From assembly GCA_002633005.1 (NCBI GenBank), contig NMRA01000198.1, forward strand, positions 256,045-320,044: a stretch of 64,000 nucleotides of DNA, given 5' to 3'. The translations under genes and the position numbers were made by a program. The notes under the pieces are model-generated. The model worked only from the letters and a program-made list of their open reading frames with translations. It did no database searches and was not told where the DNA came from. Below, in pieces: positions 968 to 58,638 of this stretch (its first letter is position 1; each line of letters begins with the position of its first letter). Source of the stretch: Phoronis australis. Lineage: Eukaryota; Animalia; Phoronida.

Positions 968-3900
968 GTAATTTTTGGATATTGGGCGGCGTGGCAGGAG
1001 CTCTTACAGCCCCATTCGTTTTGCCTGCTGTAGGGTTCGGATCTGCAGGAATTGCTGCGGGTTCGTGGGCAGCTTCCATGATGTCAAGTGCCGCTATCGC
1101 CAACGGAGGAGGAGTAGCAGCTGGTAAGAACAACAATTATATATTAAAAACTGTTTTGTTATATTCGACAGCAACCATGTACCACAGTTGCTGAAATATA
1201 GCCTAGGCGGTGTTTGCATTATTGTTGTGCGTGGTAACCTCTCCACTGATCAAGAACTGGTCAGCGGTGGTGAAAACCGTTTGTACACTTGAGATAAATA
1301 GTCATGCAGTGCAACACAGTATGTTCGCACAACACATCTTTCTCAACATAGAAGCACTGTACGGGATTGCACGAGCAACGTTGTCAAAAAGACTGTACGG
1401 TGTGCCCATATTAAAACAACTTAATGAGAATGTAGAAGGAGAGAGTGTGCCACAGAATGCCTAAGGTAGACATCCAATACTCAGGTTATTCAACAATTCA
1501 TCGTGTCACCATTACGTGCAAGTCTTTGCATTTGCAAACTCTGTGATAAGCCCGTAGAGTTTGATTCTGTATTTAGTGCTGATGAAATCGTCTGTATTAT
1601 AACAAGATTCTGTGCAGCGAACTACGCCTTTAGCGAGGCTGTGTGGGCAGATACGTAGCCAGCTACCGTTATCTAACCGCCCTGAGTGTTGCAACGGTTA
1701 CCATGCATCTTTCCGGACGTTGCCGTTTTCTAAAACTGGATTTTTGACGAAATCGTTCAGGCAACCTTTGATCGCCCTTGTTTTTTGTGAATTGATATCG
1801 GCTTGAAGCACATAGCAACCTGTTATAGTGCTGGTGTTGTTTTATTATCAAACCTTATCTCACACACTAAAAGTTTTGTCATTTTGTTTCGTTTTAAAGT
1901 TAAGTGTAACTGATTGGACATTAAGAAGGCTTCTTTTAGGGAACTGAAATAGTGGGCGGAACCATGCAGTTGTGATGAGGATATCACTCCATTACCAAAA
2001 GTGATATAATAATTTTTTTTAGAAATCTGCTGGATTCCTGGACCACCCCCAGATCTATACGTATTCAAATGGGGAAATGAAGCCATTTACTTTCGGTGCC
2101 CTCCCTCACTAGGAACAAATTTTCACAGTTTAAGCAGCAGGGCATCGTTGAGAAACCATGTGCGATAGCCTAGAGCTGCTCCATCATTAGGGAAATTATG
2201 CACAAATGGGACATTTCTCTAACATAATTCAAATTGTAATTTGCGACTAATGATAGTTGACTTTCGAAAACGCTACGCCATATTAAAATTCACAATCCGC
2301 CTGACGGGGATCAGGTCCTTGGTGGACCTGCGTTCAACGTCACCTACAAATCCCATGTAATGCGCATTGCACCATAGATTATAGACATAGTCTATGATTG
2401 CACGCAGACGGGTGGTTTTGACCTACTGGTGTAAACAGCGTTTTTTAAAACACCTTTCCTGGCGGGGATGTACAAATGCCTTGCGAATAAAGACAAACCT
2501 TGTGTAATATCGATTCATTACATGAACAAGGACATCATGCTCCACTTCGAAGAAGAATCCGCCACAAAGTCAGTGGCTACGGCTTATAAAACTGGAAAAT
2601 TTCGGTTCCACACGGTGCCAGAAAGCTAAAATGAATTAGTAAATTTGAGCTAATCAAAGAATGTGAGGGACTAACTGTGGAATTTATTCCTGTGTTTTTA
2701 ATTGATGAACCGCTATGTAGTAATTGAATTTCTGTCAACCATGTCTGAGTCAAGATCAGTCGGAAGTCACTTTCCTGCTCTCGTTACTGTAGAGAGCGCC
2801 AATATTAAAAAAACCCTGTTCCAGTTTCAGAAACCCAAGATAACTCCGGGAGACAAACTACTATTTTTATGTCGCTCATTCGATTTCCTACAAATCACCG
2901 ATCTCTAAGTCAAATTTACCATTTGTTTACATGGGACCTAGCCGTGCAAGATCAACCAGTGGAACCATGCAAAATAAGTGGTTCTGAAGTAGTATGAGTA
3001 GGTAACGACTCTTTACTCAACTATATTGTCAACTACGCTAATTATTGCGTTCAAAGGTGAAAGTCACATCTTTGAGAAGCCCATGCAGCACTACGATTGT
3101 TATGTTTTGAGATCTAGACCCTCCGTTTGAGTTCTTGTATACGATGAGTTAGTGTTAATACACATTATAAAAACAACAAATGAGCAAATTGAGGCCATTG
3201 GTAGGTCCAACTGAGATATTCACCGCCGATGACGTCAATTATTCCAGTGTGAAATCTGCTATTTCGGCTTTATCGAGTAGACAATTCATTCAAACATGTC
3301 AGTCAATGTAATAATTTCAGCCAGTCAGCGCGTGGAAGCATATAGAACAACGATAATCCGCCATCTTTGTCCCAAAAAGAATGATTGCAAACGAATGCAG
3401 GGCAGGGATATACGAGAACGAACGAGGAAAAGTGCGTGTCGCTGATAAACGCATATAACAGGCTGCATCTGATAATCGTTTATAGGTGAACAAGCGCAAA
3501 GTGAAAGAAATTCACCTTCATGATTTTACATAAATATTTTATTTTACTTAATAGTATCTAATGCGAATTTTAAAACAGTTCTACATGACATGTATAATTG
3601 CACAGCATAGTGTGGTACTTCTGTTTGCTACAACGCACATGACGAAAGCGTGGCCGCGTCAACAACTCAAGAATCCTAATACTAAACTATCAGTGGTCTA
3701 TTTTAAATTACTTAATAGTATCTAATGCGAATTTTAAAACAGTTTTATATTGACATGTATAATTGCACGGCATTATGTAGTACGTCTGTTTCCCACAACT
3801 CTCATGACGAGAACGTGGCCTCGTCGGCAACTCAAGAATCCTAACACTAAACTACCAGTGGTCACTAAAAATCATAATTTCAGGCGGACGGGATTTCCCC

Positions 3901-4806
3901 ATTATTGTTTGTACTGTGAAATAGGCTGTCAGAGCACCTAGTCTTGCCAGTAGTCCAACTCTTCGTTAGGTACCCCTGTACGCATTTTGATCAGATAATC
4001 TGTCGATGTTATACGATTGTAATGGCCTTCCGCCATATTGGCTTTGCTCTTTTGGAACCGTCTCAACAGCAAAAATTGAGTGGTGTGGCCTGACAGATTT
4101 TGTTGAAACTATACAGTGAGTACATTGATTTGCTAAGGGAACAATGTACGGTATAAATGACCGATGTCATTTTAATTGTGTTCACAGTTAATTGGCACTC
4201 CACTGAGCTAATGAAGAAGATCTAATGCGCCGTGTTTTACCCATGTGTATGTCAAAAAATATTTCGAAATTCTGGTACCTCAACATCGCATCCAAGTGTA
4301 CCTTCAGTACATCGTTTCCTAATGATTGTCATTGAGGTAATCTGCAAAGCCCGGCGGCAACCAAAAATAGAAGGGTACTCCAAGAATTACGTCTACCAAG
4401 GGAAAATACTCGGAATATAGATCTAGGTCGAAAGTTCTAAAATTTACACGTAGGTGGTAATTGGGCCAAAAAGCGTAAACGGAAACGTTGTTATTCTTGG
4501 CTTCTTTACAAACGCATGTAGAAGCATTTCTTTGTACCGGTGGTCACAAATCATTGCACACCACAAGAAATTGTAAGTACGAAGCAAAATCAGACGCTTT
4601 GCAATCTGGACTTTTTGGTTGCAGTAACGCTTTCAGGTGATCGAGCATTTTTTTCAGGTGGCATGGTTGCTACGTTGCAATCGGTGGGAGCTCTTGGCGT
4701 TGGAGTCTCTGGCATTGCTGGAGGGGCAGCGGTAGGAAGCGCAATTGGGGCTGCGGTAGACCATGCTTCTGGCAAAAACGACAATGATACCGGCATAAAC
4801 CCATGA
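968..4806 (+). CDS. IFI27: IFI27/IFI6 (ISG12)-family protein, gene 1. Coding exons 968-1123 and 4658-4806; upstream exon(s) unresolved (candidates 374-545 or 501-545)
   Basis: Spliced translation is GNFWILGGVAGALTAPFVLPAVGFGSAGIAAGSWAASMMSSAAIANGGGVAAG|GMVATLQSVGALGVGVSGIAGGAAVGSAIGAAVDHASGKNDNDTGINP*. This contains the complete ISG12 signature (GF.xAGIAAGS.AA.MMS.AAIANGGGVAAG..VATLQS.GA). Splice sites: acceptor ttccag at 967, donor gtaaga at 1124, acceptor ttttcag at 4657, all phase 1. The symbol is family-level only. Confidence 0.9.
3545..3862. repeat. Tandem duplication of a ~160 bp unit (2 copies) in a gene 1 intron
   Basis: ttacttaatagtatctaatgcgaattttaaaacagtt...cagtggtc occurs at ~3545-3698 and again at ~3707-3862. 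Confidence 0.85.
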
Positions 4807-4893
4807 TCACGATGTAAGTGCTTATAAGTCAACAGGAGAAGCCAACGGTTTTGATATTATTTTCACAAGGATACATGACATTTTTCATCATAA

Positions 4894-6585
4894 AGGAGAA
4901 TGCCACCCGATTTAATTAGTCTTTTTTGCCATCTTAATCGGTCTATATCCACATCGCCTCTGATACGGTCGACCTCACCTTGCTGAGAGGTGTCGCGTTA
5001 ACCTGTGAGAAAGGTGAGAAGCGACGCAGCGACGTCAGTGGTTCTTCTGCAGAGTGAATGCCGCTATATTGCGGTGCATTGGTTCCTGCTTGTCCGAACT
5101 ATGAAGCTGCGAAAAAAGCGGGTATATCGTTTTTTCGACTTCCTCGATAGACCGAAATGCTTAGGAAGTGGCTCGCGGTAGTGAAGAATGAAACGCATGC
5201 TGTTAATAGCAAGTATGAGGCCGTGAAACATTTCCGTGTCTGTGGCCGGCATTTCGTCGACAGTGATTTCTCTGACGAATTCCGGCTTACCAAAGAACTA
5301 TCCATACGTTCCGTTGCCTGTGCATGTTCTCTAGTATTTCTTGATCAGTGTATTCCGGTTCGAACTGATAGCCTGTGAAACCTAACGATCCGACCCGTGA
5401 AGTCTTCGTCGGATGAGCTCTTGACTAAGTCGGGATTGGCGCCCGGCGAGTTGCCATGTAGACGTTTATTATTCTACGTTCTGTTTCAAAATGAATTATT
5501 CTCATCCTAAAATGATCGTAACCAATGCTTATATGAAACTGAAACAAAGTCTGTGTCATTAGATACAATTAGAGTGCTCGTGAGTGCAAATGTTTTGAGA
5601 AGCCAGCAATGAATAAACCACTGCTTTACCGGCTTTTGATGCGGGCAACAAAGGTAACTGACGGGGCACCGAGGCCGTGTGAGCGCATGATAATTCAGTA
5701 TTTGCTGACAGAAAGCTGTTGTGAAACAATTACTCGATTTTATATGCTATTGTTACATGTTAGGGGAATCTTTATTTAGAAATACAAAAACATTATTCAA
5801 GTCATTGTTACTATACAACCTTTGCCCTGAAGGTCTGTGGAAGGGGAACCCGGCTTCGGCCCCCGACAAGTAGTAGATTTTCAGTTTCGTCACATAAATA
5901 ATTACGTGCACATTATTTCTTTGGCACACTATTATAGTCTTTTCGTGACGGGAGGTCTAGTTTCCAACTTAAGCAGGTTTATGTTCGTGCCAGTCCCGGC
6001 GGCCGCGACGGGCTTGATCGGGTTCCGAGACACTGGCCGGGATAACGGGTCAGTCCCGCCGCGACGGGCCTGATCGGGTTCTGATCCACTGGTCGGGATA
6101 ACAAGCGTTTTGTGTGTTTAGAACTAAAAAAATCACAAGTATAAACAACACAAATCTAGGTTCTCCTGTCTGTATTTCACCGAAAAATACTTCGATTTTA
6201 TCTCCGAACAGACCCAAAACTCCTGCTAAGGACCTTGGTAGTGCCGAACTTTATAGGCTACGGGTGTGTCCAAATACCAGTTAATCCAGAGTAGCGAAAT
6301 AAAACCACGTTTTTATAAGAACTCGGTGTATTTTTATGGGTTTTACATCGCAGTTTGATGATTTATTGGTGTTAAACGGTGAATTTAAGCGATAAGCTGA
6401 CACCACTAACCCGTGTTGGGAACTGCAGAACAGACTGCGTGTGAAACCAATTACGTCATTGGATAATTTCAACACCTCCGTCTGCCGTCAGGTGTAAGGT
6501 AACGCAACCGAACCTGCCGTTATGGAGTAGAACTACTCGATCTAAATTGATACAAAATAGGTTGTTTTTGGGGTGGCATTCTCCT
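4894..6585 (+). mobile_element. Kolobok-like non-autonomous DNA transposon (internal-deletion derivative)
   Basis: TIRs aggagaatgccaccc / gggtggcattctcct with TTAA-like flanks. THAP relic on + from 5058: MPLYCGALVPACPNY...SFFRLPR*TEMLRKW...RVCGRHF. Convergent minus-strand GYQFEPEY motif at ~5350-5380 resembles the N-terminus of the Kolobok accessory protein. Confidence 0.75.
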
Positions 6586-6866
6586 TAAAGATCATTTCTC
6601 TTTGTCTCGCACGAACTATACTGTTTGAATTTCTTTGTCGACTAACAAATCACTCGAACACGCCGCCATTTTGACTATCACTTGAAAACACCTCTTGGGC
6701 TTGTTCACTTATGTATGCTTTTTTTCGTTGTTCCGTCAAAATTCACTAATCGGAAGCTGTCTTTGCTATGTTTAGAGGGTGGCACCTCCTCTAGGATATT
6801 ACGCAAGAAAATGTCTATGTACAGCTGTCGCCAAAGATTTATTCTTGACTGCTAATTCTGTTTCAG

Positions 6867-7793: not shown

Positions 7794-9462
7794 AACAGGA
7801 GCAACGCAGAGCGTTGAAATGCACCCGCGAATGCATCGCAAATGGTGTGCTTTTAGGGTTGTATATTTGTATCACAAAAATGGACACTAGATGGCACAAA
7901 AACGTACAATCCATCCAAAAACGGGAACATGCCATATTTCATAAAAATCTGTCAAGGAACTTCAGAGAAACAAAGGAAAACAGAACAAAATGAAATTGCC
8001 ATCTGTGGGCACAGCATCCGTTCTATCCGCCTGAAAGTCGTCGTCTGTTATCTTCATATACGTTCACTTACTAAATTTAATAAAGATCCTGCAGTGGGTT
8101 TTGGAGATACAGCTAAGGGCGCAAAAAACTACCACTAGGAGGCGCCACAGTAGTCAGTCACCATCATCAAACGTCCTCTTTACACTGAAAACATACATGC
8201 CAATTTTCAAAACCATCCCTAGAATGATTTGGTTGACTGAGCGGTGGACGCCAAAAACAAGATTAGAAAACAGCAAAATGGCCACCAGGTGGCGCAAAAT
8301 AACTCGATTCCATCCAAAAACAGAATGATAGCGTCATCTCACCAATAGATGCCTATATTCAAAATTTTATGAAAATCTGTTGAGGACCTTTGAAGATACA
8401 GACTGGTAAACATAAAAACTAAAACTGCCTCTAGGGGGCACACCAGAAGTCAGATCCGTCCGAAAGTCGTCGTCATCTATTGTCAACATCAAATAAATAT
8501 ACTAGCTAAATTCAGTAAAGATCCTGCAAACGGTTTAATAGATACAGCAATGATTGCAAAAAACTGCCACTAGGAGGCGCCACAGTAGTTGGAACTCGTT
8601 GGAAAATCGTCTTCAGCCGTCCATTTCATAGTAAGACCATACATGCAAATTTTCCCAATTATCCTGAAATGGGTTTGGTTGACAGACGAGTGGACGCCAA
8701 AAAACAGACTCGAAAACAGTAAAAAATGGCCACTAGGTGGCGCAAACTGCCTGTATGCCAAATTTTATAAAAATACGTTGAGGACCTTTGAACATACAGA
8801 GGTAAACATAAAAAAATAAAATTGCCACTAGGTGGCACACCAGCAGTCACATCCGTCCGAAAGTTGTCGTCATTCGTTGTCAACATCATATAAATACACT
8901 TACCAAATTGGAACGGTTTAGGAGATACAGCTATAGGCGCAAAAAAACTGCCACTAGGAGGCGCCACAGTAGTCGAAATCGTCAGAAAATTATCGTCAGC
9001 CGTCCACTTCACAGTAAGAACTTACGCCAATTTTCACAATCATCCTTTGAGCGGTTTGCGTGATAGAGGGGTGCACGCAAAAAACAAGACTCGAAAACAT
9101 GAAAAATGGCCACTAGGTGGCACAAACTGCGTTGAATCCATCCGAAAACAGAAGGACAGCGTCATCTCACTAATAGGTGCCTATATACCAAATTTTATGA
9201 AAATCCGTTCAGTACCTTTGAAGATACAGAGGTAAACGTAAAAATCTAAAATTGCCACTAGGGGGCACACCGGTAGTCGGATCCGCCCGAAAGTTCGCTC
9301 ATGCCGTCCCAACCACGGAAGGAACAAATGTGCAAACTTTCATGAACATACGTCAAGGCATTTTGGAGATCAGATAGAGCAGCGGACGCCGGATGGACGG
9401 ACGGACGGACGGACGGAGATGACGACATAATGCGTCCACATATAAATATGTGGGCGCATAAA
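7794..9462 (-). mobile_element. Helentron-associated non-autonomous element (DINE-1/pearl-like) with a tandem core array
   Basis: One end has aacagg, a short stem-loop (caacgc-aga-gcgttg) and subTIR atgcaccc. The other end has a (GGAC)n microsatellite at ~9390-9417 and hairpin atgcgtccacata-taaa-tatgtgggcgcat followed by an A-run. About 11 internal units of 100-160 bp. Confidence 0.75.
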
Positions 9463-29815: not shown

Positions 29816-30693
29816 ATGATGCAAAAACGGGCCACAAAAATGCTTGACGGATATGGCAGCATAGTGGGTATCATCGAGATTCGAGTGTTTTTGTATATTT
29901 CCAAGCGGCCCTGTTGAGCAACCGGATATCTGGTTGCTAATTTCTCATAAAAGTTCGCATTTGGAACTATTCGAATAGCAAAGCTTCAAAGCATGCCACA
30001 GACAAGTTTAAGTGCATTGTAAAACATATGGACTGACTGAGGAGGAATTTGTCGGATTATCCGTGTGTATGCCTATTTGTTGCCTGTTCTATGTAGACAT
30101 TTTCACAGACAATTGTCTGAATGGTAAGAGGGCATATATATTTGTCTGGAGAGAGTTGAGCAAAATGAAATATTTTTGGGACGTACGTGACACGTCACCA
30201 AAATGTATTTTCCTGCTCTGCCATTTTTCCGTGCGTTGATCTTTCTGGGACTATTAATTGTTATTTTACTTATTGCTTTTTTAAAAACTTATTTTGATTT
30301 TCCGTCATTTTCCATAGATTTGAAACAGTTTATAAGTTTTGAAATGTTTGCGGGTTCCTCCCTATGAATTGTTTTTTGCTTTTCAGGCGATGTTTTGAAG
30401 AACTTAAATTATTCGGTCTATCACCTTTTTATGGAAATACTTAGGCCTACGCTGTCACCACGCCATCGTTAATATCAGGAAATTTCAGTTGCACACTCCA
30501 AATTTGCGGGTGTCCAGCTTTTCAAGAAACGATCGGATTTTTAACGGGAACTATTGTGGTTGTTCGTCCCTCTATCCAAGTGTATAAACTAACTATATGT
30601 AAAAAAATCCTTGATTGTCGTATTTGCACTGTTGCATGAGTTCGTGGGTTGTGACTCCGCCTCAGTAGTTTTGATTTTCTTTTATTCTTAGAA

Positions 30694-33331
30694 ATGGACG
30701 GTGGCGAAACCAATATTGTTTTGAAGGATAATTCTGAAGAGGTATCAATGTATTGTGCGAACCAAAGTGTCACACAATCCGACAACCCCAATGGAGAGAG
30801 TTCAGCCAACAACATTTTTCCCAATGCAGAAGATTCGACTAATCCGAGTTCCACCCATGGTCAGGATTCAGTCAACGACGTAAACGAAAACCCCAAAGAA
30901 AGCAGCGCCACCAAACGTTCTTGGAAGACAGGATTAAAAATTGCTCTCATTGGTGCAACGGCAGTTGCAGGTGGCGTCTGCGCAGTTGTGGCCGCTCCGT
31001 TGGTTCTACCTATCGCGGGCGTTGCATCTGGCGCGGCTGCAGTCAGCGGAGGCGTCGCTACAGGTTGGTATATACCAGTGGGCTGACGTTTCCCCCCGTG
31101 AGCGCAGCGGCAATTATGGTGTATTCACTTAAAACCTCTGTTACGGAGATAGTAAAAAATGAACAGTCCAGTGATTGTTATGAGCTGTTCTATTGTTCCA
31201 TGGCCCAAAGGTAGCCTGTGAACACATCATCTTGATGTAAACAGTCAAATTAATCTCTCTCCCTGTTTCTCTCGCTCCCTCATACACAACTGCGGACTCA
31301 TTCGGCACCTAAAAAGATCAACACTGAACAATGTAAGCCCACAGTAATACATAGCATATCAAATTCACAGTATAAACTATTGCACGTGACTTGAGAAAAT
31401 GCAGTTCTCAAGGTCACCAAAAATGGCGGAAGTGGCCGCACCCAATTAATGAGGCTTGCATTGCAAAACACGACATGACGACTGCTGGCAAATAAAAGGC
31501 AGCTAACAAGTGTCAAAATTACAGCATATTCATATTTAGCAGCTCAGTTACAATATAGATAAATACAAGTTGTAAAGTTGTAACTTACATATCATATCCC
31601 AGTAAGCCCACGGCACGTCTGTCCATGTGAAAATATGCGGGCAAAATAACCTAATCAATCTCATTGTAAGAAGAGACGCATTAAGGACACAGCGCCCCAG
31701 CGGCAATTGTTATCACTAAAAACAGTCGGCAAACTTGTCTAACTGAAAATCGTCCATAGTAGCCACTGCAAAACCTTGCTATGGTGTAAAAACAACTCGC
31801 CTACAGGCGTTTTGGCTCCTTTAAAGGAACGTCATCCCGCCCTTATTCTTCGTTGGTACTGAAATCGGTTATGTTAGTATTGCATCGGCGGCTAACTGAG
31901 ATCAAGCCTCCGTGAAAAGCAACAATGAGCCTAGTCTGAAGCTAACAAACTACAAGTTCTTCTCAAGTCTGAAAATCGTTTCTAATCGGAATACAGAACA
32001 AGTTTAGAACGATTACACTGAGGTAAGCCTTAGCTTTAGGAGCTTGAATTAACAGCTGTCTTTTGACAGAAGCTGCGGGTTTCTTGCACCCTAATGGGGT
32101 TATATACTTCTATACTAACTCAAAATTTTGAACTACGTTACCCAATCACCCAAAATGTGTTTCGGTTCTCACTATATTATGATACACAATGAATTCCATC
32201 CACTAACAGGTCATTCAGGAGGTCATCAAGTAAATAGATAACATAGCCATCTGGAAAAGAAATTTTGAAGTTTATTAAAAGATTGATCAAGTCACGATTT
32301 TCTTGTTTTGGTCGTAAGTATGGAGGAAATGTCCAAATTAATATTTTATTCAATCTAAAATTTTATAGGTCTTCTTCTACAGTCAGCTGCAGTTGCTGGC
32401 TCGGCTGCAGGTTTAAGCGCAGCGGCAACTGCCGGGGTCGCTGGCGCCGGGAGCCTTATTGGCGTTGGAGTCGGAGCTGGGGTGGCTCATGCAATTCACA
32501 AACATCACGAGAAGACTGAAAAACAGCAAGACCGTAAGGATCTACGCATTGTATTATTTGTTCTTGCTTACTTGTGGTTAGCTCGTTACATGTATCATAA
32601 CTTTGTGATTGGTTTAAATGAGCAAACAGTGGTCATGAGGGCATTCAAATATTTACAGAAATCATTTTCATTGCTCTTGTTTTATTTTACTTACCTTGAT
32701 CCTTGACATTTTGTAAATGCAATTTATTTAATGAAATTACAATCATAATACTGTATGACAGCGAATCAAAAATAATTTATTCTTCATTTTTATGGGAATT
32801 TCGTCGCTTTTTACGTGTCAGTGATAAACTCAAAGTCACAGACAATGCACATATTGCGCCATTTTCGAGTTTTCAAGTTTGCCTAACCTCTATACATTTT
32901 GAAGAGTTTCTTGAGTTGCTGATTGCTTCGGTGTTCGTGTTGGCAACAAAAATAGAATCCCATGTTGTTAGAGTGACAGGCCTAAGCTTTAGTCAGCTAT
33001 ACAGGGTGAAAGGCGTGGGAAGTGCGATTTTATCGCCCTATCACTTTCCATAGGTAGATGTGCATTCTTACTACGCATATGTGAGAAAGTGTTTGGTGTC
33101 GTCTTAAGAAAGCTTCAAAAATTGATGCGTTTCATGTATGTCTATTTTACAGAACGACCACCAGCTTCAGGCAGGCGGTGCGTTGTGTGCCTGGATGAAG
33201 ACAAGTGCATCTTATTTCTTCCATGCCGCCATCTTTGTGCTTGCACGAATTGTTCGGAACAGCTGAAACAGTGTCCGATTTGTAAAAGAGATGTCACGGA
33301 ATTGGTTCATAAGGCATACGTGTTTATGTAA
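30694..33331 (+). CDS. Gene A: IFI27/ISG12-like membrane segment fused to a C-terminal C3HC4 RING (putative E3 ubiquitin ligase), 237 aa. Exons 30694-31063, 32369-32533, 33153-33331
   Basis: GT-AG introns, both phase 1; 370+165+179=714 nt, open. Reads ...IALIGATAVAGGVCAVVAAPLVLPIAGVASGAAAVSGGVATG|LLLQSAAVAGSAAGLSAAATAGVAGAGSLIGVGVGAGVAHAIHKHHEKTEKQQDQ|RPPASGRRCVVCLDEDKCILFLPCRHLCACTNCSEQLKQCPICKRDVTELVHKAYVFM*. The RING has the IAP/MUL1/MGRN1-type pattern. Confidence 0.88.
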
Positions 33332-33994: not shown

Positions 33995-34242
33995 GGGCCC
34001 GTTCCAAGAAACTGACTTAAGTTCATTTTTTACTTAAGTCTAAGATTTCTCTTAACTTCCCACCTTTGAAACTTCCACATCAGGTAAATTCATCAAAATT
34101 AAGACAAAACTTACGTCACACACTTAAATCAAGCTTAAAATCTCTTTCTTGAAATGATTTTGAGACAAATTGAACTTTTATTTTAATATTTAGTAAAATT
34201 TAAGAATTGTTTTAGCTAAGTCAGCTTTGTTTGAACGGGCCC
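33995..34242. mobile_element. PIF/Harbinger-type MITE
   Basis: TIRs gggcccgttc...ctgactta / taagtcag...gaacgggccc, with a 3 bp TSD CAG on both sides. Confidence 0.8.
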
Positions 34243-35829: not shown

Positions 35830-36766
35830 ATTATTGGGGACAAATAAAACAACAAGAATAATATATATTTTAAGTTGTATTGGGAATTTCAAGGTCACAG
35901 CTCTAGAAATAAATATTTCACACAAGGAACCAGGTGGGTTCCTTAATTACAAGAGATAACACACACATTTCCGATACCCAAAGTGTAATTGAGTATCGGA
36001 TATTAAGTAGCACAGGTTAGCATAGTACCAAATGGGTATATAATACCAAATGGGTATTAAGCGATTGCCTACCAACTGGGTCGAGCAAAACGGCAAATTC
36101 AATAACAAGTACCAAGTGGGTACAAACTGCCAAATGGGCAAATATCATATAAAGTATCAAGTGGGTACACCAAACAGCCGTTCCGGACAAGCTGAGTGAG
36201 CAGACCAGCCGGAGTGATAAAAAGCGATATTGTAAGGAACGTGGTGTTGTGGCTCAGTATGTGCCGAGAGCTGGGTGGAGAGAAGCAAGCTGCAGTAAAT
36301 GATGCTCGAGTACAGGTCGGGTCTTTAGCCAATGATGTCGGTTCTTGCCTGAAGGAACACGCCGCTCCGGGCTTGAAGAAGGTACCAGCAGTGACTGTAA
36401 AAACAACAATAACCAACAGCAGATTTTGTTCGACAAAAGGGAGGGAGCGTGGGAAAGGTTGACTTGAGATTTTGTGGTACCCAGGGTAGGGAGGGTGGGG
36501 AGGTATAAATTATGTAATTAGGAAAACTTACGAATGAATGTACTGTTGCTTGAGGCTGGGCCAACAGGAAGCTGGAGAGAAAGAACAAACAGCGCTACCA
36601 TCGGACTTGGTAGGAACTAACTAGGAGTTGGATATGAAGGATGAAGGGGTGTATAATAGTATTTGCCCAAATAATAGGATTTATGTCAGAGTGCCATAAA
36701 TCTCATTATTGGGGACAAATAAAACAACAAGAATAATATATATTTTAAGTTGTATTGGGAATTTCA
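35830..36766. repeat. ~60 bp direct repeats flanking ~0.8 kb, with a large palindrome at the right end
   Basis: attattggggacaaataaaacaacaagaataatatatattttaagttgtattgggaatttca at ~35830 and ~36706. Hairpin tatttgcccaaataataggatttatg...cataaatctcattattggggacaaata at ~36660-36721. Confidence 0.75.
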
Positions 36767-43049: not shown

Positions 43050-46000
43050 ATGGACGTCGACGAAACTAATGTTGCGCTGAAGAACACTTTGGAAGAGGTG
43101 TCAGCGCATTGTGCAAACGAAAGTGATACAACACCCATCATTACATCCGAAAGCCACAACTCTGATGAAGAGAGTTCTGTCGACAACGATTTTACACATG
43201 CTGACAATTCTGCCAGTTCGACCTCCATCCATGGTCAGGATTCAGTCAATGACGTAAACGAACTCCCCAAAGAAAGCAGCGCCACCACACGTCCTTGGAT
43301 GACAGGATTAAAAGTTGCTGTCGTAAGTGCAACGGCGGTTGCAGGCGGCGTCTGTGCAGTACTGGCGGCTCCGTTGGTTTTACCTGGTGCGGCTGCAGCG
43401 TGCGGTGGGGCAGTCGCCACAGGTGAGTATAGGTCTGAAGACAACTGGGTTATTTCCGTGAGGAAAATCGCAATCATCATGTTTTCTTAAAGCTGCAATT
43501 CGCTCAGTTTTGCTGGCTAACAAACAAGCAAAGATCGAATAAGGCCTTTCACTCTCATAAAATCGATCTCGTAATATTCCTTACCGTGACTGGATTCAAT
43601 TTCTGTTACCAACTCAAATCAGTTTTAGGACTGAAAACGGAGAATATTCATGGTTGGTAGAGGCTTCATGACGTTATTGGCTTTGATCAGAGCTATAAAA
43701 TTTACTACCTCCCTCATTCCCCTTCCGACCTCGTTTTTCTCCAAATCGGCGGGAACGACTTCCACTCCACCTCCATATCGACCCCTCCTTTCTGGCCTCA
43801 CACCTCGTCACCTTCTCCCGTTTTCTATTAGTCGCTTGCAACGTCCGGCGCGTCGTTGTGGGTCAAGCGTTTCACGGTTCCAGGCTCCACTCCTTCAACT
43901 CCCTCCTTGCCAAAGAGTCTCACATTTGTTTCTGGACTCAAAGGGGCGGTTTCTGGGTTAACCCCAACCACCTCTACCGCCGGGACGGAGATCACTTCAA
44001 CAGCTTTAGCCTCCACAAACGTGCGTGTGGCCATGGGCCACCACCTCCGCCAACTGTAAACAAGTGTTTGTCTGCGAACGCGCTGTTTTCATGAAGTCAC
44101 TTTTTTGTCTTGTTCAAGTATCAAAAAAACAGCAAGCTGTTTTGCTCCTTCAAAGCAACGTCGTCATGTCCTTATCCTTCGTTGGAATAGAAATCAGTAC
44201 AATACGACACATGAAATAAAACAATGCGTATAATAAAACACATAAAATTCTAATTTCGGCTGATGTCAGTACTGCTTCGGTAGCTGTAACTAACCCGCTG
44301 TGACAAGCTACATAATGATTTGGGTCTGAGGCAATAATTAATCTCGTCAGAGCACGGAAAGTGATGAGAGCAACTATATCATGGTACAGGGGCATAGAAA
44401 TTAACTGTTCAGTTATTTTTTGTCAGAATGCCTGGGTTTAATGCACAATTGTAGACTGAACTGTTTACTTCTTGCTCACTTACAAAAGCGAAAATTATAA
44501 GCTACGTAACTCAATCCCCTCAAATGTGTTTAGAAAGAACCTTTCTGTATCATAAAAATGATTTCCAGCCACTGTCAGATTACTCAGGATATCGACAATT
44601 AAAATGCGATAGAATTAACAGGCGTGTAAGTTTTGAATGCATTATGTTAGAGTTGACCAAGGAAATATTCTACTTAATAAGTGATCAAACCGATTTTTAG
44701 GTATTTTTCTGGATGCAGCGACAACTGCCGGGGTGGCAGGCGCCGGCGGCCTTATAGGCGCTGGGGTCGGAGCCGGCGTGGCTCACGCAATACACAGACA
44801 GCACGAGAGGGTTGGGCAACGACAAGACGGTAAGAACCTATAACAGCTTATTATTTAAAATGACTTATTCTTATTAAAATGACATAGGCAAGAAATTGAA
44901 TTTCAGGCCTCAAAAGCGAGGCCCCTATGTTAATATAGGAGGCCCGCCGAAAGGCGGCTGGAGAGCGGTGAAATAATATAGTATATTATTTCACCGTGCA
45001 TTTTCTGAGCTAACTTATACTTATCTCAATTGAATGTATGTTACTCTTCAAGCTGTGGCATAATGCAAATCAAAAATAAACCAATTTCTGGACTTACTTT
45101 ATATAAATGATAACGTACGAGCGTCCCCATCTCGAAGACTTCTATGATTGTCTAAAAGCTAAGTGTCGGGGTGTCGGCATTGGCGGAGATTGTTGTCACG
45201 TGGTTGTGACTTAATTTCTGTGGTTCGTGATGTAATACATTATTTACTAAGAAAGAAAGGAATTCGGTAGCAACAAAGTGGTTTTAAAACGTTGTAGGTA
45301 CACAGATTGGGCGTTCCATAAGGCTAAGGAATAAAAACATTGGGATCAGAGCCAGGACAAGACGGACCCCCAAGGTTCTCTTGACTACCTCATATATCCC
45401 TGGAATTTCGGACCGTGTGAAAAAAAACATCTCCACCAACACGGGGTTACCACAGGATCCAAACCAATTAAATCTCTTAGGAGCAAATTATTTAATGTAA
45501 AATGTTCCAATGGTGTATTTGGGATAAAGTGTGGGAACGAAGAATGTCCAGAGTGCAATGTTGGAGAAAAGGAAGCAGGCGCTTAAAGTAGGATTTATCA
45601 ACACTGTCGCCCTAACTATGGAGATAACTATGACTCAGCAGTGTTTAGTCACATTTGGGCATCAGAATATGATTTTTCTATGGAAAATGTGTTGATCCTT
45701 AATTGATACTGAAGATGATTGGTTTTCACGTGGTGTAAGAAAGACGATTCACGAGAGAATTGAGTCCCCAGCCTCAACAGACACGAAGGACTGAGACATA
45801 ATCTATCAGCTGTTTGGAATAATGTATCACATCACCAACCAAAGAAATTATGTCACAACCCAAGTGACAACAATCTCCGCCAATGCCTATACGCCACCAC
45901 TTCGTCTTCAGACGATCTGCTAAAGTCTGGGGACGTTACATTATCACATACACAAAGTAAGTCTAGAAATTGACTTATTTTTGATTTGCATTATGCTTAT

Positions 46001-46200: not shown

Positions 46201-46282
<82 letters not shown>

Positions 46283-47665
46283 ACTGTTCATTGACACTTC
46301 ATTTATAGAGGCATTTCGCCACTCTCTAGCTTTCGGATTTGCAAACATTGCCACGCTCATCCGATGGTCAATCCTTGTCGAATGAGCCGGGGTTTGCCAA
46401 AAACCAATAAAGTCTGGAAGTCTCGATGTTCTTGTGGACAAAGACCACAATTCGAGTAGTTGATTTTGACGCTAAATCACTGATCTAGGTCAATAAAGCC
46501 TTTGTTTGCACCCTGCCCTAAGACACCTAAAAAAGACATAAATTACAGAAAGCACACTCGATGGTGGTTCTCAAAGATGAAGAAATCCACGTCTTTTGTA
46601 CCTTGCTACGTCCACCGGAAAATAATTGTGGTGCCAAAAATGACCATAAATGCATATTTGGCCTTTTGGTACCTAAAATCCCAAATTTACTACTGCCCCG
46701 GTGCAAAGGACAACTTGAGAAAAGAATACATACGTTCTTGCACTCTAAATTCCATAAATTTATATTAAAATATGACATTACCAACCAGACTTTTGCCAAT
46801 TTCCACATGTCTGAAGAGTACCTGTATTCATGCCAAAAATTCCCCACTGAACAAAACTGCTTTGAAAATGCTGGGACTTCCGTATCCTGCAGAGGTCAGA
46901 TTTACTCAAAACAACTTTAAGAAACTATTGAATACCATTCGTGTTAATTACATCCCTAGTCCACAAAAATTGCGGTCCAACCTGACCCACTACATTTTCT
47001 TCATATTCGAGGAGAGCTCCAAAGGCCCGAACAGTTGCCTTAGACCTGTTGATAACAAAGGCCCGAACCGTGACCTTACACATGTTGGTAACGGAAATAT
47101 AATCCTGGAGCATGGGCGGCGCACCATAGGGGGCTGACTGTTGGGTGGCTGGGGGCGCTTTAGCACCCCACTTTTTTCAGTGCACCGCCGCCCATGGTCT
47201 ATGGGCGGTGCACCACAAGGGGGCTAGGGGGGGCTATAGCCCCCCCCCCCCACTTTTTTCAGTGCTGCGCCGTCCATGTAGAGGACAGTTAAACAGTGGG
47301 GAATGCAGCTATGAAAACGTGACAAGTCTACTCATTACCAAGGCCATTGTATCGCGGAATCACTTTCCGTGAATAGATCTGTGTTCTCATACTGCAGATG
47401 TTAGAAGATATCGGATATCTTCGCGAGAAAGCCTCAAGAATCAATGTGATTCGTGTATGCCCATTTTACAGGACAACCACCAGCACCCTCAAGCGACAAC
47501 CAAGGCAGGCTGTGCGTTGTGTGCCATGAGAAAGACAAGGGCGTCTTATTTCTTCCATGCCGCCATATTTGTGCTTGCACGAATTGCTCGAATCAGCTGA
47601 CACAGTGTCCGATTTGTAACACAAATATTACGGAATTAGACCTCAAGGCAAACAAGCTTTTGTAG
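43050..47665 (+). CDS. Gene B: paralog of gene A (eroded IFI27-like segment plus C3HC4 RING), 231 aa. Exons 43050-43422, 44701-44829, 47472-47665
   Basis: Phase-1 GT-AG introns; 373+129+194=696 nt, open. Reads ...VAVVSATAVAGGVCAVLAAPLVLPGAAAACGGAVATG|IFLDAATTAGVAGAGGLIGAGVGAGVAHAIHRQHERVGQRQDG|QPPAPSSDNQGRLCVVCHEKDKGVLFLPCRHICACTNCSNQLTQCPICNTNITELDLKANKLL*. Flanking intron sequence also aligns with gene A. Confidence 0.88.
45058..45996 (+). mobile_element. Penelope-like element fragment (GIY-YIG endonuclease relic) with inverted pLTR, in a gene B intron
   Basis: Degenerate YIPGISDRVK...GVFGIKCGNEECPECNVGE...DSAVFSHI...WFSRGV...GLRHNLSAVWN at ~45390-45820. Inverted repeat arms at ~45058-45245 and ~45818-45996. 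Confidence 0.75.
46118..46280. repeat. Compound microsatellite (ATGC-like, TA, CA)
   Basis: Directly visible. Confidence 0.95.
47111..47278. mobile_element. Two adjacent ~80 bp hAT-like mini-elements
   Basis: catgggcggcgcac...gtgcaccgccgcccatg at 47111-47196 and a similar copy at ~47200-47278. Confidence 0.6.
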
Positions 47666-54134: not shown

Positions 54135-54452
54135 CTGCCAAACTTCTTAAATGTGCCAAATTTATCCTCTGTGGATCTCACGCTGATCTCATAAATGCCT
54201 GGTTTTCTTGCTCACAACTACCTGACCGTCTCAAACAAGCTTGCGTTACTCCCATTCACAAGAAAAATGCCCCCCTCTCCATCTCAAACTATAGACCTGC
54301 CAATAATTTGAAAACTCTATGAATGTGAGATTTTCAATCAGATATCCAGCCATGTTGAATCTAATAGTCTTTTAATGACTACCTTGGTGCCTTCCGTGTT
54401 GGCTTTAGTTACAATACCACCTTATTTTGCCTACTTGAAGACTGGCAATCTA

Positions 54453-54718
54453 TAGAAAATAACTCGCAAGTATTTCTTTACTGTTCATTGATGACAGCAA
54501 ACTACGAATGATCGTAACCTGAAAGAACAGAGACAGGGGGTAAATACTAGGTCGCTGATAAGTGACGTGTGATTATAATAGGTAAACAATGCTACAGATG
54601 TGCTAAGGCTACAATATATGAGAGAATCTTACCGCTAATTAAACAATGGACTTAGAGACAAAAGGAACATGGCGGCTAGGGCGAATAGCAAGCGCCATCT
54701 ATATGTCATAATTCTCTA
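54453..54718. mobile_element. Small DNA element with TAG termini and 3 bp TSD (Academ-like), nested in the LINE
   Basis: cta|tagaaaataa...taattctcta|cta. Excision rejoins EDWQ to LDEQKY of the RT. Confidence 0.6.
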
Positions 54719-55703
54719 CTAGATGAACAAAAATACACTGCAGCAGTCCTCATAGATCTTTCTAAAGCTTTCGACTGCCTCCCTCACTCCCTTCTAATCT
54801 CCAAACTTGAAGCTTACAAATTTGATGACAATACCATAGCCCTTCTTAGGAATTATCTTTCCAACAGAAAACGAGTAAGACTAGGCCAACACTCTAGTGA
54901 ATGGGGCCAAGGTATACACGGGAGTACCTCAAGGATTCATCCTGGGTCCCCTTCTCTTCAATTTGTTCATCAATGACATCTTCTTTTTCGTGAAAAAATC
55001 TACACAGGTCAACCATACAGATGACAACACCTTCTCTTTCTCTGACAACAGCCTACTCTGTAACTGAAAATTTATGACAGGACAGCGAATCACTCAACTG
55101 ATTCGCTGTGATGCATTTTTACATCCGCAAAAAGAGAGTTAGTGGAATTGTATAGGGGAAAAATCTGTATAGTCATGTATACTGTGTTATTAATTGTAAT
55201 AGGCCAAGTGAACAAAAATTGTGTACTTTTGTAAAAAGACATTCTTCCTGATAAAACTTAAATACATTATGTACAGTAAAAATCCTTTAATTTGGACAGT
55301 ATATAATGTTCTAAAATTTGAAATAGGCAATATTGTCTGTAATAAATTTATGATATAAGATAAACAACGAACAATCATTCATACTGATGTTAACGCTATG
55401 TGGCCGCAAAGAAATGTTGCGTTGGGGACTGTTTTTGACAATTTTATGAGTTGCCGAATCTATTTTTGATGCACAGCGTAGTGTCAGATGTTTTGAGAAA
55501 TATTACGAACACCAAAATCATCCATGTACCAATCTATGGAATCAAGTAAGTACAATTTCAGCTTAATTTTTGGTGTCCTAAATTTTTGGAACTACCAAAA
55601 TTGGAGAATGTTTACCGTAATAAAGTATCATGTATGCGCATGTCAAGGCTATTGCTCTTGTAATTTAAGTTACTGTACCATTGCTATTTGCAGGTTGTGT
55701 AGT

Positions 55704-58638
55704 ATGAGTCGCCGAGGGAAATCCAGTAATTCTTCTTCAGACAATAAGTCTGACACTTCATCAGGAGGATTTTGGGGCTATTTGCTGGCTGCTGGAGCTG
55801 GGGCTCTTATTGGAGGTATGTGTAGAACAACAGCTTTGCAATGAGGAGCTCGAAATTCACCAGGTGGTGTAAAAGAAAGAGTGCCTTATACCTGCGTGCC
55901 GTGAGGTTGTCACGTGACGTGTTAATATTACGCAGGTGTTTGCTCTGTATTCATACAAAGTGGACCTTTCTTTCATTAGCAACACCTCGTAAATATTGAA
56001 TATCTCATTTCTTAAACTTTTCCAGGGCTTTGGTATGTGAATGAGAATAAAATTTAGTAATTTCCATCAATTTAACTGTAAATTTTGTCTTGTTGAGGAC
56101 ACTCCTTGAAAATATGAATGTGCTTTTGAAATAACAAGATCTGTCTTGACTCTGAAGTATACAACTTGGTTTTGTTGGATATTTCTTATTTGTTGTATAC
56201 GGTAAAACCTCGCCAATTTGGTTCAGAAATAATCACTAAGATTAAAGTTTTCTCATGTTTCAAGGCCTTCTAACAATGTTGTGAATACCTACAATTTTCA
56301 TAACACTGTCAGGTGGTCTTGATCATAAAGCATTAACTTAGGGCTACGTGTCTTTCATGGAAAAGCGAGAAAAGAAAATTCCTCTTGTTGGCCATATTGT
56401 GTCCTATGTTGTTGAGATGTTGCCGTAATAAAAAAAATAATAATTGCAGGCGGTCTGATACACGTTGTAACAGACGTGCGCAGGCCTCGCATGTGGGCCC
56501 ATTGCACTGATCACCTGGAAATATTTTTATGCTTTATTAATATATGGTTAAAACCGAGCTGAGGAGCTAGAAACCTGGCTCAAGGGTTTAGCAGTGTGAC
56601 CTGGTGGGATTTGAACCCACGACCTCGAGTAAAGAAAGCGGGCACTTTATCAACCAGGCCACACTGCCTCCTCTAGATGTTGCCGTAACTCGTCTTCAAC
56701 AATTTTGCTTATTGTGTCATTTGAATTCATTTTACAGCAGCCGCAGCCGTCTTTGCTTCCACAAGCGAAGAAACTGAAAATGGTAAGAACTTGTAAATTT
56801 AGTGCTTTCGCATTTTAATGCGTGCTTGCTGGTGCAACTGTGTTTGAATTTTGTACTAATTGTTTTTTTATTATTGTGATAGTTATTATTGCTGTCATTA
56901 TCATTATCACTATTATTATTATTGTCATCACCATCATCATCATCATCATTATCATCTTCATTATTATTATCATTCTCATTGTTATTCTAGCATAATATAA
57001 TAATTATAATAATAACACAGGACAATGTCAAAGATTCTGACCAGTAACTTCTGTCAGAATTACTCAAACATGCTAAGTGGAAGTGCAGTTACTGTTATTT
57101 TCCTCTCATTTTGTACAAAAAGTATTTCCCAAAATTGTCATTATTATGTTTTAAATGCCGATTACCTTGTTGCAAATAATGGAAACTTTGCAAAATGTTG
57201 TTTTGTGACACCTAACATTTATGTATTCTGTATTTTTGCTGTGAAATTTGACAAACTAAAGTTTCATTTGTCCACTATATTGTGTGTAAAATAAGTCAAA
57301 GACTTGCTATATGGAGAATCCGTGAACTGGAATAATCCTTTGTTAGTGTCGCTCCGTCACATTTCATCGTACTCTGCTGTTTTATAACACTCATCGACGA
57401 GTATCACATTTTTCAAAGCTGAGTCTTTCGTGTAAATTTCCCAAGGGAATCCTATCATGTTGCCTTGTCCTTTTTGTGGGAGATTTTCACTATTGACAAC
57501 AAACTATGTGAACATAAATGTCCAGGAATTGATTTGCTAGAAGTTCTCTACTCCTAATCTCTCACTCTACTGCTGTATCATCTCCATGTTAATATTCATT
57601 CTTTTCTCATCGTCCTTTCAGCTGCACGTAATGCTGGCAATACCAATACGACCAGCAACAATGAGTCTGATCAAGGTAAGTCTTCTCATCAGTTACAATT
57701 TTCTTCGTGTCGTTACTGATTTCATTCTCTGTGTTCACCTCTCAGTGTTTGAGATTCTTTTGCCCCCTTCCCCAAGTTGTATTGTACAGGCACAGGTGCA
57801 TGTTGGCGCAGTTTTCCACCTTTTTCCTTTTTGACCAAGTGTCTACTCACCTTAATTTAAGTCTTAATGTGCTGGTTTAGTGTATCGATATGCTGGAGTG
57901 ATCTGCACTTTTGCAGGGTCACTTTTAGTCACACAACTTTTATGTTGTTAAAAGGTGGATGTAAGTTGACAAAGTCAAGTTCAGGGATCATGCCTTGCAT
58001 TGAAAGAGTGAGTTGAGAGTATGAACATTGATCTGTAAGAAAATACATCTGTGCGCCAAGCTGACAGAGTCGTACGTGTTCTGCTTCAAAGAATCGTATA
58101 TGTTATAAACTGAGGTTCACACCGACATTTTACAATTAGTTCTAATGTGCACTTATGATGTGACTGAAGTAGTGACTGTAGTGTTGAGAAACAAAAGTTT
58201 GTGCACCATTTTCTTTTCAAATGTCTTCTACACTGCTCAAGGTATTCATGTTGTGAATGAATGATATTACACAGATGTTACTGTTTTCATGTAATCAGTA
58301 TTTGAAAGATTTGCAAATATTGATAAAATAGCGTGTGAATGTTGAATACTGCGATTTTCCAAAACGTTTTTGTAATCAGCATTTGCAAGTTGCCTTTAAT
58401 TAGATTTAAAGTAGTACTTTATTGACCATACTTTCTGAGACCTTTGTGAACATTTTCATGATGCTTTGTTTCAGATTTCCAGAAACCCACAACCTGCTGC
58501 GTTTGCTGGGACAATGACAAATGTATCCTGTTTAAGCCGTGCCATCATGTCTGCGTATGTTATAAATGTTCAACAACACTCCAGACATGCCCAATGTGCA
58601 GGAAACATATTACAGAGAAATCGAAAGTTTATATTTGA
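55704..58638 (+). CDS. Gene C: small single-TM plus C3HC4 RING protein (putative membrane E3 ligase), 124 aa. Exons 55704-55815, 56738-56782, 57622-57675, 58475-58638
   Basis: All introns GT-AG and phase 1; 112+45+54+164=375 nt. Reads MSRRGKSSNSSSDNKSDTSSGGFWGYLLAAGAGALIG|AAAAVFASTSEETEN|AARNAGNTNTTSNNESDQ|DFQKPTTCCVCWDNDKCILFKPCHHVCVCYKCSTTLQTCPMCRKHITEKSKVYI*. AATAAA at 58670. The RING exon frame is absent from the ORF track. Confidence 0.85.
56429..56674 (-). mobile_element. tRNA-derived SINE
   Basis: Minus strand has A-box TGGCCTGGTTG, B-box GGTTCAAATCC and an (ATT)n/T-rich tail. 14 bp TSD agatgttgccgtaa at 56415-56428 and 56675-56688. Confidence 0.9.
56868..57015. repeat. (ATT/ATC)n low-complexity microsatellite
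   Basis: Directly visible. Confidence 0.85.

What the first reader, a model, noticed from the sequence alone, without database searches (positions are those of the whole stretch)
968..58638. Four-gene co-oriented cluster grading from pure ISG12 to TM-RING, built from phase-1 exons
Seen: gene 1 has the full ISG12 motif and no RING. Gene A has lost the GFGSAGIAAGSWAASMMS core but keeps LQSA and has a RING. Gene B has lost more, including LQS (middle exon 129 vs 165 nt). Gene C has one short Gly/Ala TM (FWGYLLAAGAGALIG|AAAAVF) plus a RING. Every resolved coding intron is phase 1 and the internal exons are symmetric (156, 156, 165, 129, 45, 54 nt). Inference: A and B are chimeras made by local recombination between an IFI27 gene and a gene C-like TM-RING gene, or all descend from one fusion ancestor. 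Either way the window may capture gene birth in an innate-immune cluster.
Basis: partly seen in the sequence, partly recalled or inferred. Interest (0 to 1): 0.8.

Follow-up and report, generated by a model that had tools for sequence, protein, structure and literature searches.

The report
ISG12 anchor fused to RING ligase
Two neighbouring animal genes join a shortened interferon-response membrane domain (ISG12/IFI27-like) to a RING finger, and RNA reads show that join in one of them; they likely encode membrane-anchored ubiquitin ligases, a pairing that also turns up, probably independently, in oysters and crustaceans.

Summary
The four co-oriented genes, their exon sizes and the phase-1 introns are as described. 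Gene 1 is a true ISG12/IFI27 gene (Pfam PF06140). A and B carry an ISG12-derived hydrophobic region with the core deleted, followed by an IAP-type C3HC4 RING with all eight zinc ligands. RNA reads show A's hydrophobic exon spliced to its RING exon (32533→33153).

The 'gradient' is not a stepwise series. A and B are tandem duplicates of one fusion (dS about 0.44), and C's helix shows no ISG12 ancestry. C as RING donor is plausible but not shown: synonymous sites are saturated, the tree is unresolved, and an unrelated database RING is as close to A as C is. The event is old, not a gene birth in progress.

The architecture is not unique. Magallana oysters encode intact ISG12 plus a C-terminal RING, and malacostracan crustaceans encode an N-terminal RING plus ISG12. 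My paper searches found no description of such fusions. Gene 1 also has a phase-1 donor 7 nt after its stop, at the position where A/B splice to the RING, which leaves the direction of change open.

Verdict: a real, likely convergent new variant of membrane-anchored RING ligase.

The parts
968..1123 (+). Gene 1, ISG12 exon a (156 nt, phase 1-1), intact core motif
   Evidence: PF06140 E 1.8e-16; boundaries
4658..4813 (+). Gene 1, ISG12 exon b (156 nt); stop TGA at 4804-4806, then a phase-1 GT donor at 4814, at about the position of the A/B donor that splices to the RING exon
   Evidence: PF06140 E 0.0022, profile 52-84; donor in top 1.3% of GT sites; use in RNA untested
30692..31063 (+). Gene A first coding exon (ATG 30694): about 75-aa polar/acidic N-terminus, then the first ISG12-like helix with about 15 core residues deleted
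   Evidence: a contig enters at 30692 and stranded reads fit + strand RNA
32369..32533 (+). Gene A second exon (165 nt): LQS-containing second half of the ISG12-like domain plus basic tail
   Evidence: its donor is used in RNA
33153..33331 (+). Gene A terminal RING exon (C3HC4, PF13920), all 8 zinc ligands, Lys after the last Cys, aromatic residues in the tail
   Evidence: junction 32533→33153 GT..AG in 13, 5 and 3 reads of three RNA runs and one contig
43050..43422 (+). Gene B first coding exon, paralog of A exon 1 (79% identity over 256 nt), with a further 5-residue deletion
44701..44829 (+). Gene B second exon (129 nt), 12 codons shorter than A's, LQS lost
47472..47665 (+). Gene B terminal RING exon, all 8 zinc ligands, Asn after the last Cys, no aromatic residue in the tail
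   Evidence: PF13920 E 5.7e-15
55704..55815 (+). Gene C first coding exon: Ser-rich N-terminus and start of a short Gly/Ala hydrophobic helix that is not ISG12-like
   Evidence: z 0.2
56738..56782 (+). Gene C 45-nt exon (end of helix, acidic linker)
   Evidence: splice sites in top 1-2%; no RNA data
57622..57675 (+). Gene C 54-nt linker exon
   Evidence: splice sites in top 0.1-0.2%; no RNA data
58475..58638 (+). Gene C terminal RING exon, all 8 zinc ligands, Arg after the last Cys
   Evidence: PF13920 E 6.3e-13

Best explanation
Genes A and B are tandem duplicates that join an ISG12-derived hydrophobic domain to a terminal IAP-type RING exon, likely through one old exon-shuffling event at a phase-1 intron, and they are predicted to encode membrane-anchored E3 ubiquitin ligases. 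Inferred order of events: (1) an ISG12 paralog whose second exon ended in a phase-1 donor, as gene 1's still does, was joined to the phase-1 acceptor of a RING exon, most plausibly from a C-like neighbour; (2) about 15 residues of the conserved ISG12 core were deleted; (3) the gene duplicated in tandem, and B lost about 17 more residues. The remaining Gly/Ala helices would hold the protein in an ER or mitochondrial membrane, with the acidic N-terminus and the RING in the cytosol (basic residues flank both ends of the hydrophobic block). The RING would recruit an E2~ubiquitin and ubiquitinate membrane-associated host or viral proteins. That would do in one chain what human IFI27 does by recruiting the separate ligase SKP2. 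Shown: exon structure, A's fusion splice, intact zinc ligands, purifying selection on the hydrophobic block. Inferred: donor, order of events, localisation, ligase activity and immune role.
For: Splice: 32533→33153 GT..AG in 13, 5 and 3 reads of X2-X4 (one study) and a contig of X1, first mates on the - strand. Depth over A's first two coding exons works out at about 12-15x in X2 against under 1 in the intron bin (my arithmetic). ISG12 ancestry: mean score against 102 homologs 90.8 for A (shuffles 61.8±3.9, 0 of 150 reach it; reversed 75.7) and 74.1 for B (52.2±3.9, 0 of 150; reversed 66.2). Against gene 1, 0 of 3000 shuffles reach A's score and 3 of 3000 reach B's. The family alignment shows a clean block deletion, and the intron falls after the same GG-V-A-x-G motif as in gene 1. 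One fusion, then duplication: A and B share upstream and intron DNA at 70-80%, dS about 0.44, and are sisters at 100/100. Constraint: overall dN/dS 0.47 (Fisher p 1.4e-4), hydrophobic block 0.25 (p 2e-5). RING: best solved relatives are cIAP1/cIAP2/XIAP (E 2e-10 to 1e-8). A, B and C share a phase-1 intron a few codons before the first Cys (7-9 for C and A, 15 for B), a terminal position, and an extra Cys two residues after the His; A and C share a D-K-C-I-L-F stretch. IFI27 works through SKP2 (PMC12646010, passages; 10.1101/693333, passages).
Against: Pfam does not recognise the A/B hydrophobic exons (0 of 4 at E<=1). A profile built from 102 homologs scores whole A and B below zero bits; 15 and 92 of 1000 shuffles reach them with bias correction, 5 and 9 without. 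Reversed controls are raised, so part of the signal is Gly/Ala periodicity. C is not shown to be the donor: the RING tree has no starred branch, and P0001 from an unnamed record is at least as close to A. A/B do not group with gene 1 in the ISG12 tree, which is largely unresolved. The RING core shows dN/dS 0.91 between A and B on few changes (p 0.77). B has Asn at the position after the last Cys and lacks an aromatic tail; from recalled knowledge of RING 'linchpin' and tail residues, that suggests weak activity. B's junctions were not among the joints listed, and its 5' end is covered at about 2x at most. No ligase, localisation or immune-induction data exist.
Confidence: 0.55

Rival explanations
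1. An intact ISG12-RING gene, like the oyster one, is ancestral in this lineage. Gene 1 lost its RING through a stop codon just before the phase-1 donor, and A/B are eroded descendants of the same ancestor. The polarity is the reverse of the first reader's.
For: Gene 1's TGA (4804-4806) lies 7 nt before a strong phase-1 donor (top 1.3%), 15 codons after the 'HA' that A/B carry 13 codons before their RING donor. TGA is one CpG-type transition from CGA (inference). Magallana proteins have intact ISG12 plus a C-terminal PF13920 RING (P0219, P0222, P0275). Holding A/B with the oyster RINGs is not rejected (p-AU 0.093).
Against: No RING remnant between gene 1 and A. Oyster RINGs are only 14-17 of 45-52 residues identical to A/B, against 22-25 of 50 for C, and lack the extra Cys. 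A/B group with neither gene 1 nor the oyster ISG12 domains. An intron shortly after a stop is compatible with a normal 3' UTR (general knowledge).
Confidence: 0.2
2. The fusion is real, but the RING exon came from another PF13920 gene elsewhere in the genome. C is only a distant member of the same RING subfamily that happens to lie next door, or is itself a separate recruit of that exon type.
For: A-C and B-C RING synonymous sites are saturated (pS above 1; 70 and 68 of 123 nt identical). No shared intron or 3' DNA with C. P0001 is 28/50 identical to A against 25/50 for C. ISG12 has been joined to many unrelated domains in the databases (lysozyme g, major vault protein, PH, SUMO-like).
Against: C is adjacent, co-oriented and has the same phase-1 terminal RING exon; among the sequences in hand only A and C share D-K-C-I-L-F. 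The A/B/C clade costs only 0.26 log-likelihood units.
Confidence: 0.17
3. The A/B hydrophobic block is not ISG12-derived. It is a generic glycine-zipper membrane anchor, so A, B and C are simply a family of TM-RING genes beside an unrelated ISG12 gene.
For: No Pfam PF06140 hit; weak profile scores; raised reversed controls. ESM Atlas gave only low-scoring glycine-zipper-like look-alikes for A's first helix (below its recognition threshold). An 8-residue stretch of A/B resembles C's helix (0 of 500 codon shuffles for C exon 1 against A exon 2, one of 11 comparisons).
Against: Three ordered ISG12 motifs are kept around a clean deletion, the intron sits at the homologous site, and z is 7.4 and 5.6 against 0.2 for C. 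C's helix scores no better than shuffles against A (1138 of 3000) and only marginally against B (143 of 3000).
Confidence: 0.08

Closest known systems
ISG12/FAM14 family (IFI27, IFI6, IFI27L1/2; Pfam PF06140 Ifi-6-16)
   Same: Gene 1 is a full member. A/B keep the first helix, the GG-V-A motif, LQS (A only) and the Gly/Ala C-terminal helix in order.
   Different: A/B lack about 15 (A) and about 32 (B) residues including the most conserved core, fail the Pfam cut-off, and carry a 75-80-aa polar N-terminus and a C-terminal RING.
Magallana gigas / M. angulata ISG12-RING proteins (XP_034319496, XP_034319491, XP_011451468, XP_052695444; database names 'RING-type domain-containing protein', 'NEURL1B-like')
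   Same: Same domain order: ISG12 then a C-terminal PF13920 RING.
   Different: Oyster ISG12 core intact; RING only about 31-38% identical to A/B and without the extra Cys; no grouping in either tree. Orthology is not rejected (p-AU 0.093).
Malacostracan RING-ISG12 proteins (Macrobrachium, Scylla, Penaeus, Cherax, Homarus, Procambarus, Meganyctiphanes)
   Same: ISG12 and a RING in one chain.
   Different: RING is N-terminal and of another type (best Pfam zf-RING_UBOX/zf-RING_2); separate side of the RING tree (92/98, unstarred); ISG12 core intact.
IAP/MUL1/CGRRF1/MGRN1-type C3HC4 RINGs (PF13920) and membrane-anchored RING ligases such as MUL1 and RNF26
   Same: Eight zinc ligands with IAP-like spacing; best PDB matches cIAP1/2 and XIAP, then MUL1, CGRRF1, MGRN1. 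Membrane anchor plus C-terminal RING is the layout of MUL1 and RNF26 (recalled).
   Different: No BIR or other IAP domain in A, B or C. The anchor is ISG12-derived (A/B) or a single short helix (C). Orthology to any named ligase was not established.

Membership tests
ISG12/IFI27 (gene 1) | About 80-aa ISG12 motif above Pfam PF06140 cut-off | tested here: met
   60.2 bits on exon a alone (cut-off 29.1), exon b covers profile 52-84; 101 bits on a homolog profile
ISG12/IFI27 (genes A, B) | About 80-aa ISG12 motif above Pfam cut-off, conserved core present | tested here: not met
   No PF06140 hit for 4 of 4 exons scanned singly; profile score below 0 bits for the whole models; core deleted
ISG12/IFI27 (genes A, B) | Descent from an ISG12 gene (similarity beyond composition, shared intron) | tested here: met
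   z 7.4 and 5.6 against 102 homologs, 0 of 150 shuffles each, above reversed controls; homologous phase-1 intron
ISG12/IFI27 (gene C) | Any ISG12 similarity | tested here: not met
   z 0.2, 61 of 150 shuffles reach it; 2270 of 3000 against gene 1
ISG12/IFI27 | Induction by virus or double-stranded RNA | not testable with these tools
   Runs X2-X4 carry no treatment label
C3HC4 RING E3 ligase (PF13920) | Eight zinc ligands with RING-HC spacing, above Pfam cut-off | tested here: met
   56.5, 55.3 and 48.8 bits against cut-off 27; all eight invariant
C3HC4 RING E3 ligase (PF13920) | Basic residue after the last Cys (recalled 'linchpin'; Arg in the cIAP chains shown) | tested here: inconclusive
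   C Arg, A Lys, B Asn
C3HC4 RING E3 ligase (PF13920) | E2-dependent ubiquitin transfer | not testable with these tools
   Needs an assay
IAP (BIRC) proteins | BIR domain | tested here: not met
   No BIR match in the 10 exons scanned
Oyster-type ISG12-RING | Common descent of the fused gene (RING and ISG12 halves group with the oyster ones) | tested here: inconclusive
   Not found in either tree; p-AU 0.093 for the RINGs

The most novel reading that the evidence does not exclude
ISG12 membrane domains have been fused to RING ligases at least three separate times in invertebrates: N-terminal RING in malacostracan crustaceans, C-terminal IAP-like RING in oysters, and a C-terminal RING of another subtype here. 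This marks ISG12/IFI27 proteins as ancient membrane adaptors for ubiquitination. This locus keeps both parental gene types beside the fusion, including the unused phase-1 donor behind gene 1's stop that made the join possible. It also shows that the conserved ISG12 core can be dropped once the ligase is tethered.
Probability: 0.35. Interest if true: 0.72.

Novelty: new variant of a known kind. Interest (0 to 1): 0.5.

Why it matters
How ISG12/IFI27 proteins act is unsettled: membrane destabilisation, apoptosis and recruitment of a ubiquitin ligase have all been reported (10.1101/693333, passages; PMC12646010, passages). Repeated natural fusions to RING domains are a 'Rosetta stone' argument for the adaptor role, and they supply single-chain proteins in which it can be assayed directly. 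The core-deleted A/B versions are a natural deletion series for asking what the conserved core does. As gene-evolution evidence the locus is a tidy but old case of phase-compatible exon shuffling, a well-known mechanism.

Tried and rejected
Homolog search with A's first exon among longer proteins: 0 of 1956 candidates at E<=1. With the three RINGs: 1 of 139 at E<=1e-10. So no ortholog of A, B or C from another species was available, and synteny could not be compared.

No RNA holder listed in the run index; this is no evidence either way, and the raw-read runs were laid instead.

The shared 545-nt segment behind gene 1 (4891-5435) and before gene A (29263-29810) looked like a duplication marker linking gene 1 to A. 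Rejected: it is a THAP-domain remnant (PF05485 E 3.8e-11) with hundreds of reads running off into unlike flanks at 29262, i.e. a dispersed repeat.

Search for a decayed RING exon between gene 1 and A: none. Strong acceptors after gene 1's donor gave no recognisable coding exon. RING relatives in viral contigs: 0 of 34 candidates; in metagenome contigs 3 of 103, all distant; L001 and L002 were used as tree rows, L003 was left out as a partial match.

RING tree: 19 rows, then 18 without the long branch P0084; no starred branch. ISG12 tree: 39 rows, only 4 of 36 inner branches starred, bootstrap not settled. ESM Atlas: nothing usable for A's first helix or for the oyster protein. Rfam: 0 matches. 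Earlier findings of the scan: none. No structure or complex job was run.

Paper searches without a description of ISG12-RING fusions: (listings only, apart from the four papers read in passages). The shrimp IFI6-16 paper has 0 occurrences of 'RING' (PMC9144789). Supplements were not opened, and oyster or shrimp expression tables there could list such genes.


Full report
What is there. The window is animal DNA with spliceosomal introns (40% GC, two N gaps). No whole assembly was available and the organism was not determined. Four + strand gene models can be built with canonical GT..AG sites. Gene 1 has two exons of 156 nt (968-1123, 4658-4813) and lacks its 5' end in the window. A (237 aa) and B (231 aa) have three coding exons each, and C (124 aa) has four. 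Several introns are homologous between genes, so only about five to seven are independent. With roughly a third of animal introns in phase 1 (recalled), that is unlikely by chance, although Gly-rich sequence favours phase-1 sites. All 9 donors and 9 of 12 acceptors score in the top few percent of the window's sites. Longer frames elsewhere in the window gave only transposon remnants or nothing: 2 of 7 window pieces scanned hit Pfam, THAP and RVT_1.

The fusion is transcribed. Reads of three stranded RNA runs from one study, and contigs of a fourth run, were laid on 28.5-48.4 kb. The junction 32533→33153 joins A's Gly/Ala exon to its RING exon; it is seen in 13, 5 and 3 reads and in one contig, with first mates on the - strand as expected for + strand RNA. 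A's exon 1-2 junction was not among the 15 of 55 joints listed. However, bin depths in X2 convert to about 12x, 14x and 15x over exon 1 and the two parts of exon 2, against under 1 in the intron bin (my arithmetic). The two listed differences in A's coding exons (30885, 33193) fall on third codon positions and are synonymous by my reading of the frame. B is less clear: its bins overlap repeats, no B junction was listed, and the one clean bin implies about 2x at most. Genes 1 and C have no RNA evidence in this report.

Are A and B ISG12-derived? Pfam finds PF06140 in gene 1 but in none of the four A/B hydrophobic exons. A local profile from 102 homologs gives A and B negative scores, so they are not members by the family's own test. 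The signal of descent is nevertheless clear. Mean pairwise scores against those 102 homologs are 90.8 for A and 74.1 for B, against shuffle means of 61.8 and 52.2 (0 of 150 shuffles each) and reversed controls of 75.7 and 66.2. In a family alignment, A keeps the first helix, the GG-V-A motif, LQS and the last helix in order around a clean gap of about 15 core residues, and B has lost about 17 more. The intron of A/B falls after the same motif as in gene 1. C's single helix shows nothing of this (z 0.2).

The RINGs. All three RING exons pass PF13920 and keep the eight zinc ligands. Their best solved relatives are cIAP1, cIAP2 and XIAP, then MUL1, CGRRF1 and MGRN1. Each is a terminal exon behind a phase-1 intron. 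That fits C, or its ancestor, as donor, but does not prove it. A-C identity is 25/50, while a protein from an unnamed record (P0001) is 28/50 identical to A. The tree has no starred branch; holding A, B and C together is not rejected (p-AU 0.347), nor is holding A/B with P0001 (0.347) or with the oyster RINGs (0.093). Synonymous sites between C and A/B are saturated, and no non-coding DNA is shared with C.

History. A and B share upstream and intronic DNA at 70-80%, have dS of about 0.44 and are sisters at 100/100. There was therefore one fusion followed by a tandem duplication, not two chimeras or a graded series. The hydrophobic block is under purifying selection (dN/dS 0.25, p 2e-5) even without the core. 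The RING core is not distinguishable from neutral on few changes (0.91, p 0.77), and B carries Asn after the last Cys and no aromatic tail, so B may be a weak ligase or a decaying copy (inference from recalled RING mechanism). A/B do not group with gene 1, so gene 1 is a relative of the parent rather than demonstrably the parent. One feature keeps the direction open: gene 1's stop lies 7 nt before a strong phase-1 donor at nearly the position where A/B splice to the RING. It is either a 3' UTR intron that offered a ready landing site, or the scar of a lost RING exon; no RING remnant follows it.

The architecture elsewhere. Of 150 ISG12 representatives returned for gene 1's exon, 5 carry an N-terminal RING; they come from prawn, crab, shrimp, crayfish and krill. 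Of the 120 listed (136 found) ISG12 proteins of 238 aa or more, 15 carry RING Pfam families. Twelve have the RING at the N-terminus and three at the C-terminus: two Magallana oyster clusters with an intact ISG12 core and a PF13920 RING, and one unnamed record. That search scored only the 7979 candidates sharing most words and missed proteins under 238 aa, so it is a lower bound. The crustacean RINGs are of another type and position. The oyster RINGs are about a third identical to A/B and lack the extra Cys that A, B, C and P0001 share. Independent origins are thus the likelier reading, firmly for crustaceans and tentatively for oysters.

Mechanism. I commit to A being a membrane-anchored RING E3 ligase whose anchor is an eroded ISG12 domain. 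Basic residues flank the hydrophobic block on both sides, which would put the acidic N-terminus and the RING in the cytosol (inference). Human IFI27 promotes degradation of HCV NS5A and of C/EBPalpha through the ligase SKP2 (PMC12646010, passages; 10.1101/693333, passages; the original NS5A paper was not read). A shrimp IFI6-16 is induced by poly(I:C) and WSSV (PMC9144789, passages). An immune role for A is therefore plausible but untested. Nine paper searches listed nothing on ISG12-RING fusions; PMC8917759 on oyster IAP architectures was read in passages and mentions IFI27 only in its abbreviations. The library lacks most subscription journals, and supplements were not opened.

Verdict. Observation confirmed; interpretation partly supported. 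The finding is a real, expressed (gene A) chimeric gene, old rather than newborn, with an unproven donor. Its main value is as one of several apparently convergent ISG12-RING fusions that point to a ubiquitination-adaptor role for this family. New variant of a known kind; interest 0.5.

Noticed in passing
window 4891-5435 and 29263-29810: Two 83%-identical copies of a dispersed repeat holding a THAP-domain remnant with an in-frame stop (PF05485 E 3.8e-11); high read depth with unlike flanks shows many copies elsewhere.
   Followed up: yes
window 4804-4820: Gene 1's stop codon lies 7 nt before a strong phase-1 splice donor; where it splices is unknown.
   Followed up: partly
window 35800-37130: Repeat with very deep, strongly one-sided RNA coverage (first mates on +, so - strand RNA; about 380x in X2, many differences from the window); no Rfam match and no Pfam match for its longest frame.
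   Followed up: partly
window 54150-55080: Decayed LINE-type reverse transcriptase fragment just upstream of gene C (RVT_1 E 3e-6).
   Followed up: partly
window 59044-60986 and 61225-63142: About 1.9-kb tandem duplication at 94% identity, each copy starting right after an N gap; may be two haplotypes or an assembly artefact.
   Followed up: no
window 33331-35300: Stranded reads and contigs continue past A's stop, suggesting a 3' UTR of up to about 2 kb interrupted by a repeat near 34000.
   Followed up: no
P0266 and P0268 (Magallana), residues about 405-470: The C-terminal part of these merged oyster models has what looks like a second ISG12-like helix without the core, a possible parallel core loss; it aligned poorly and sat on a very long branch.
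   Followed up: partly
one search hits: ISG12 also occurs joined to lysozyme g (salmonids), major-vault-protein repeats (tunas, mackerel), SUMO-like, PH and ankyrin domains; some may be annotation merges.
   Followed up: no
window 7900-9340: Three to four degenerate repeats of about 400-430 nt, unexplained.
   Followed up: no
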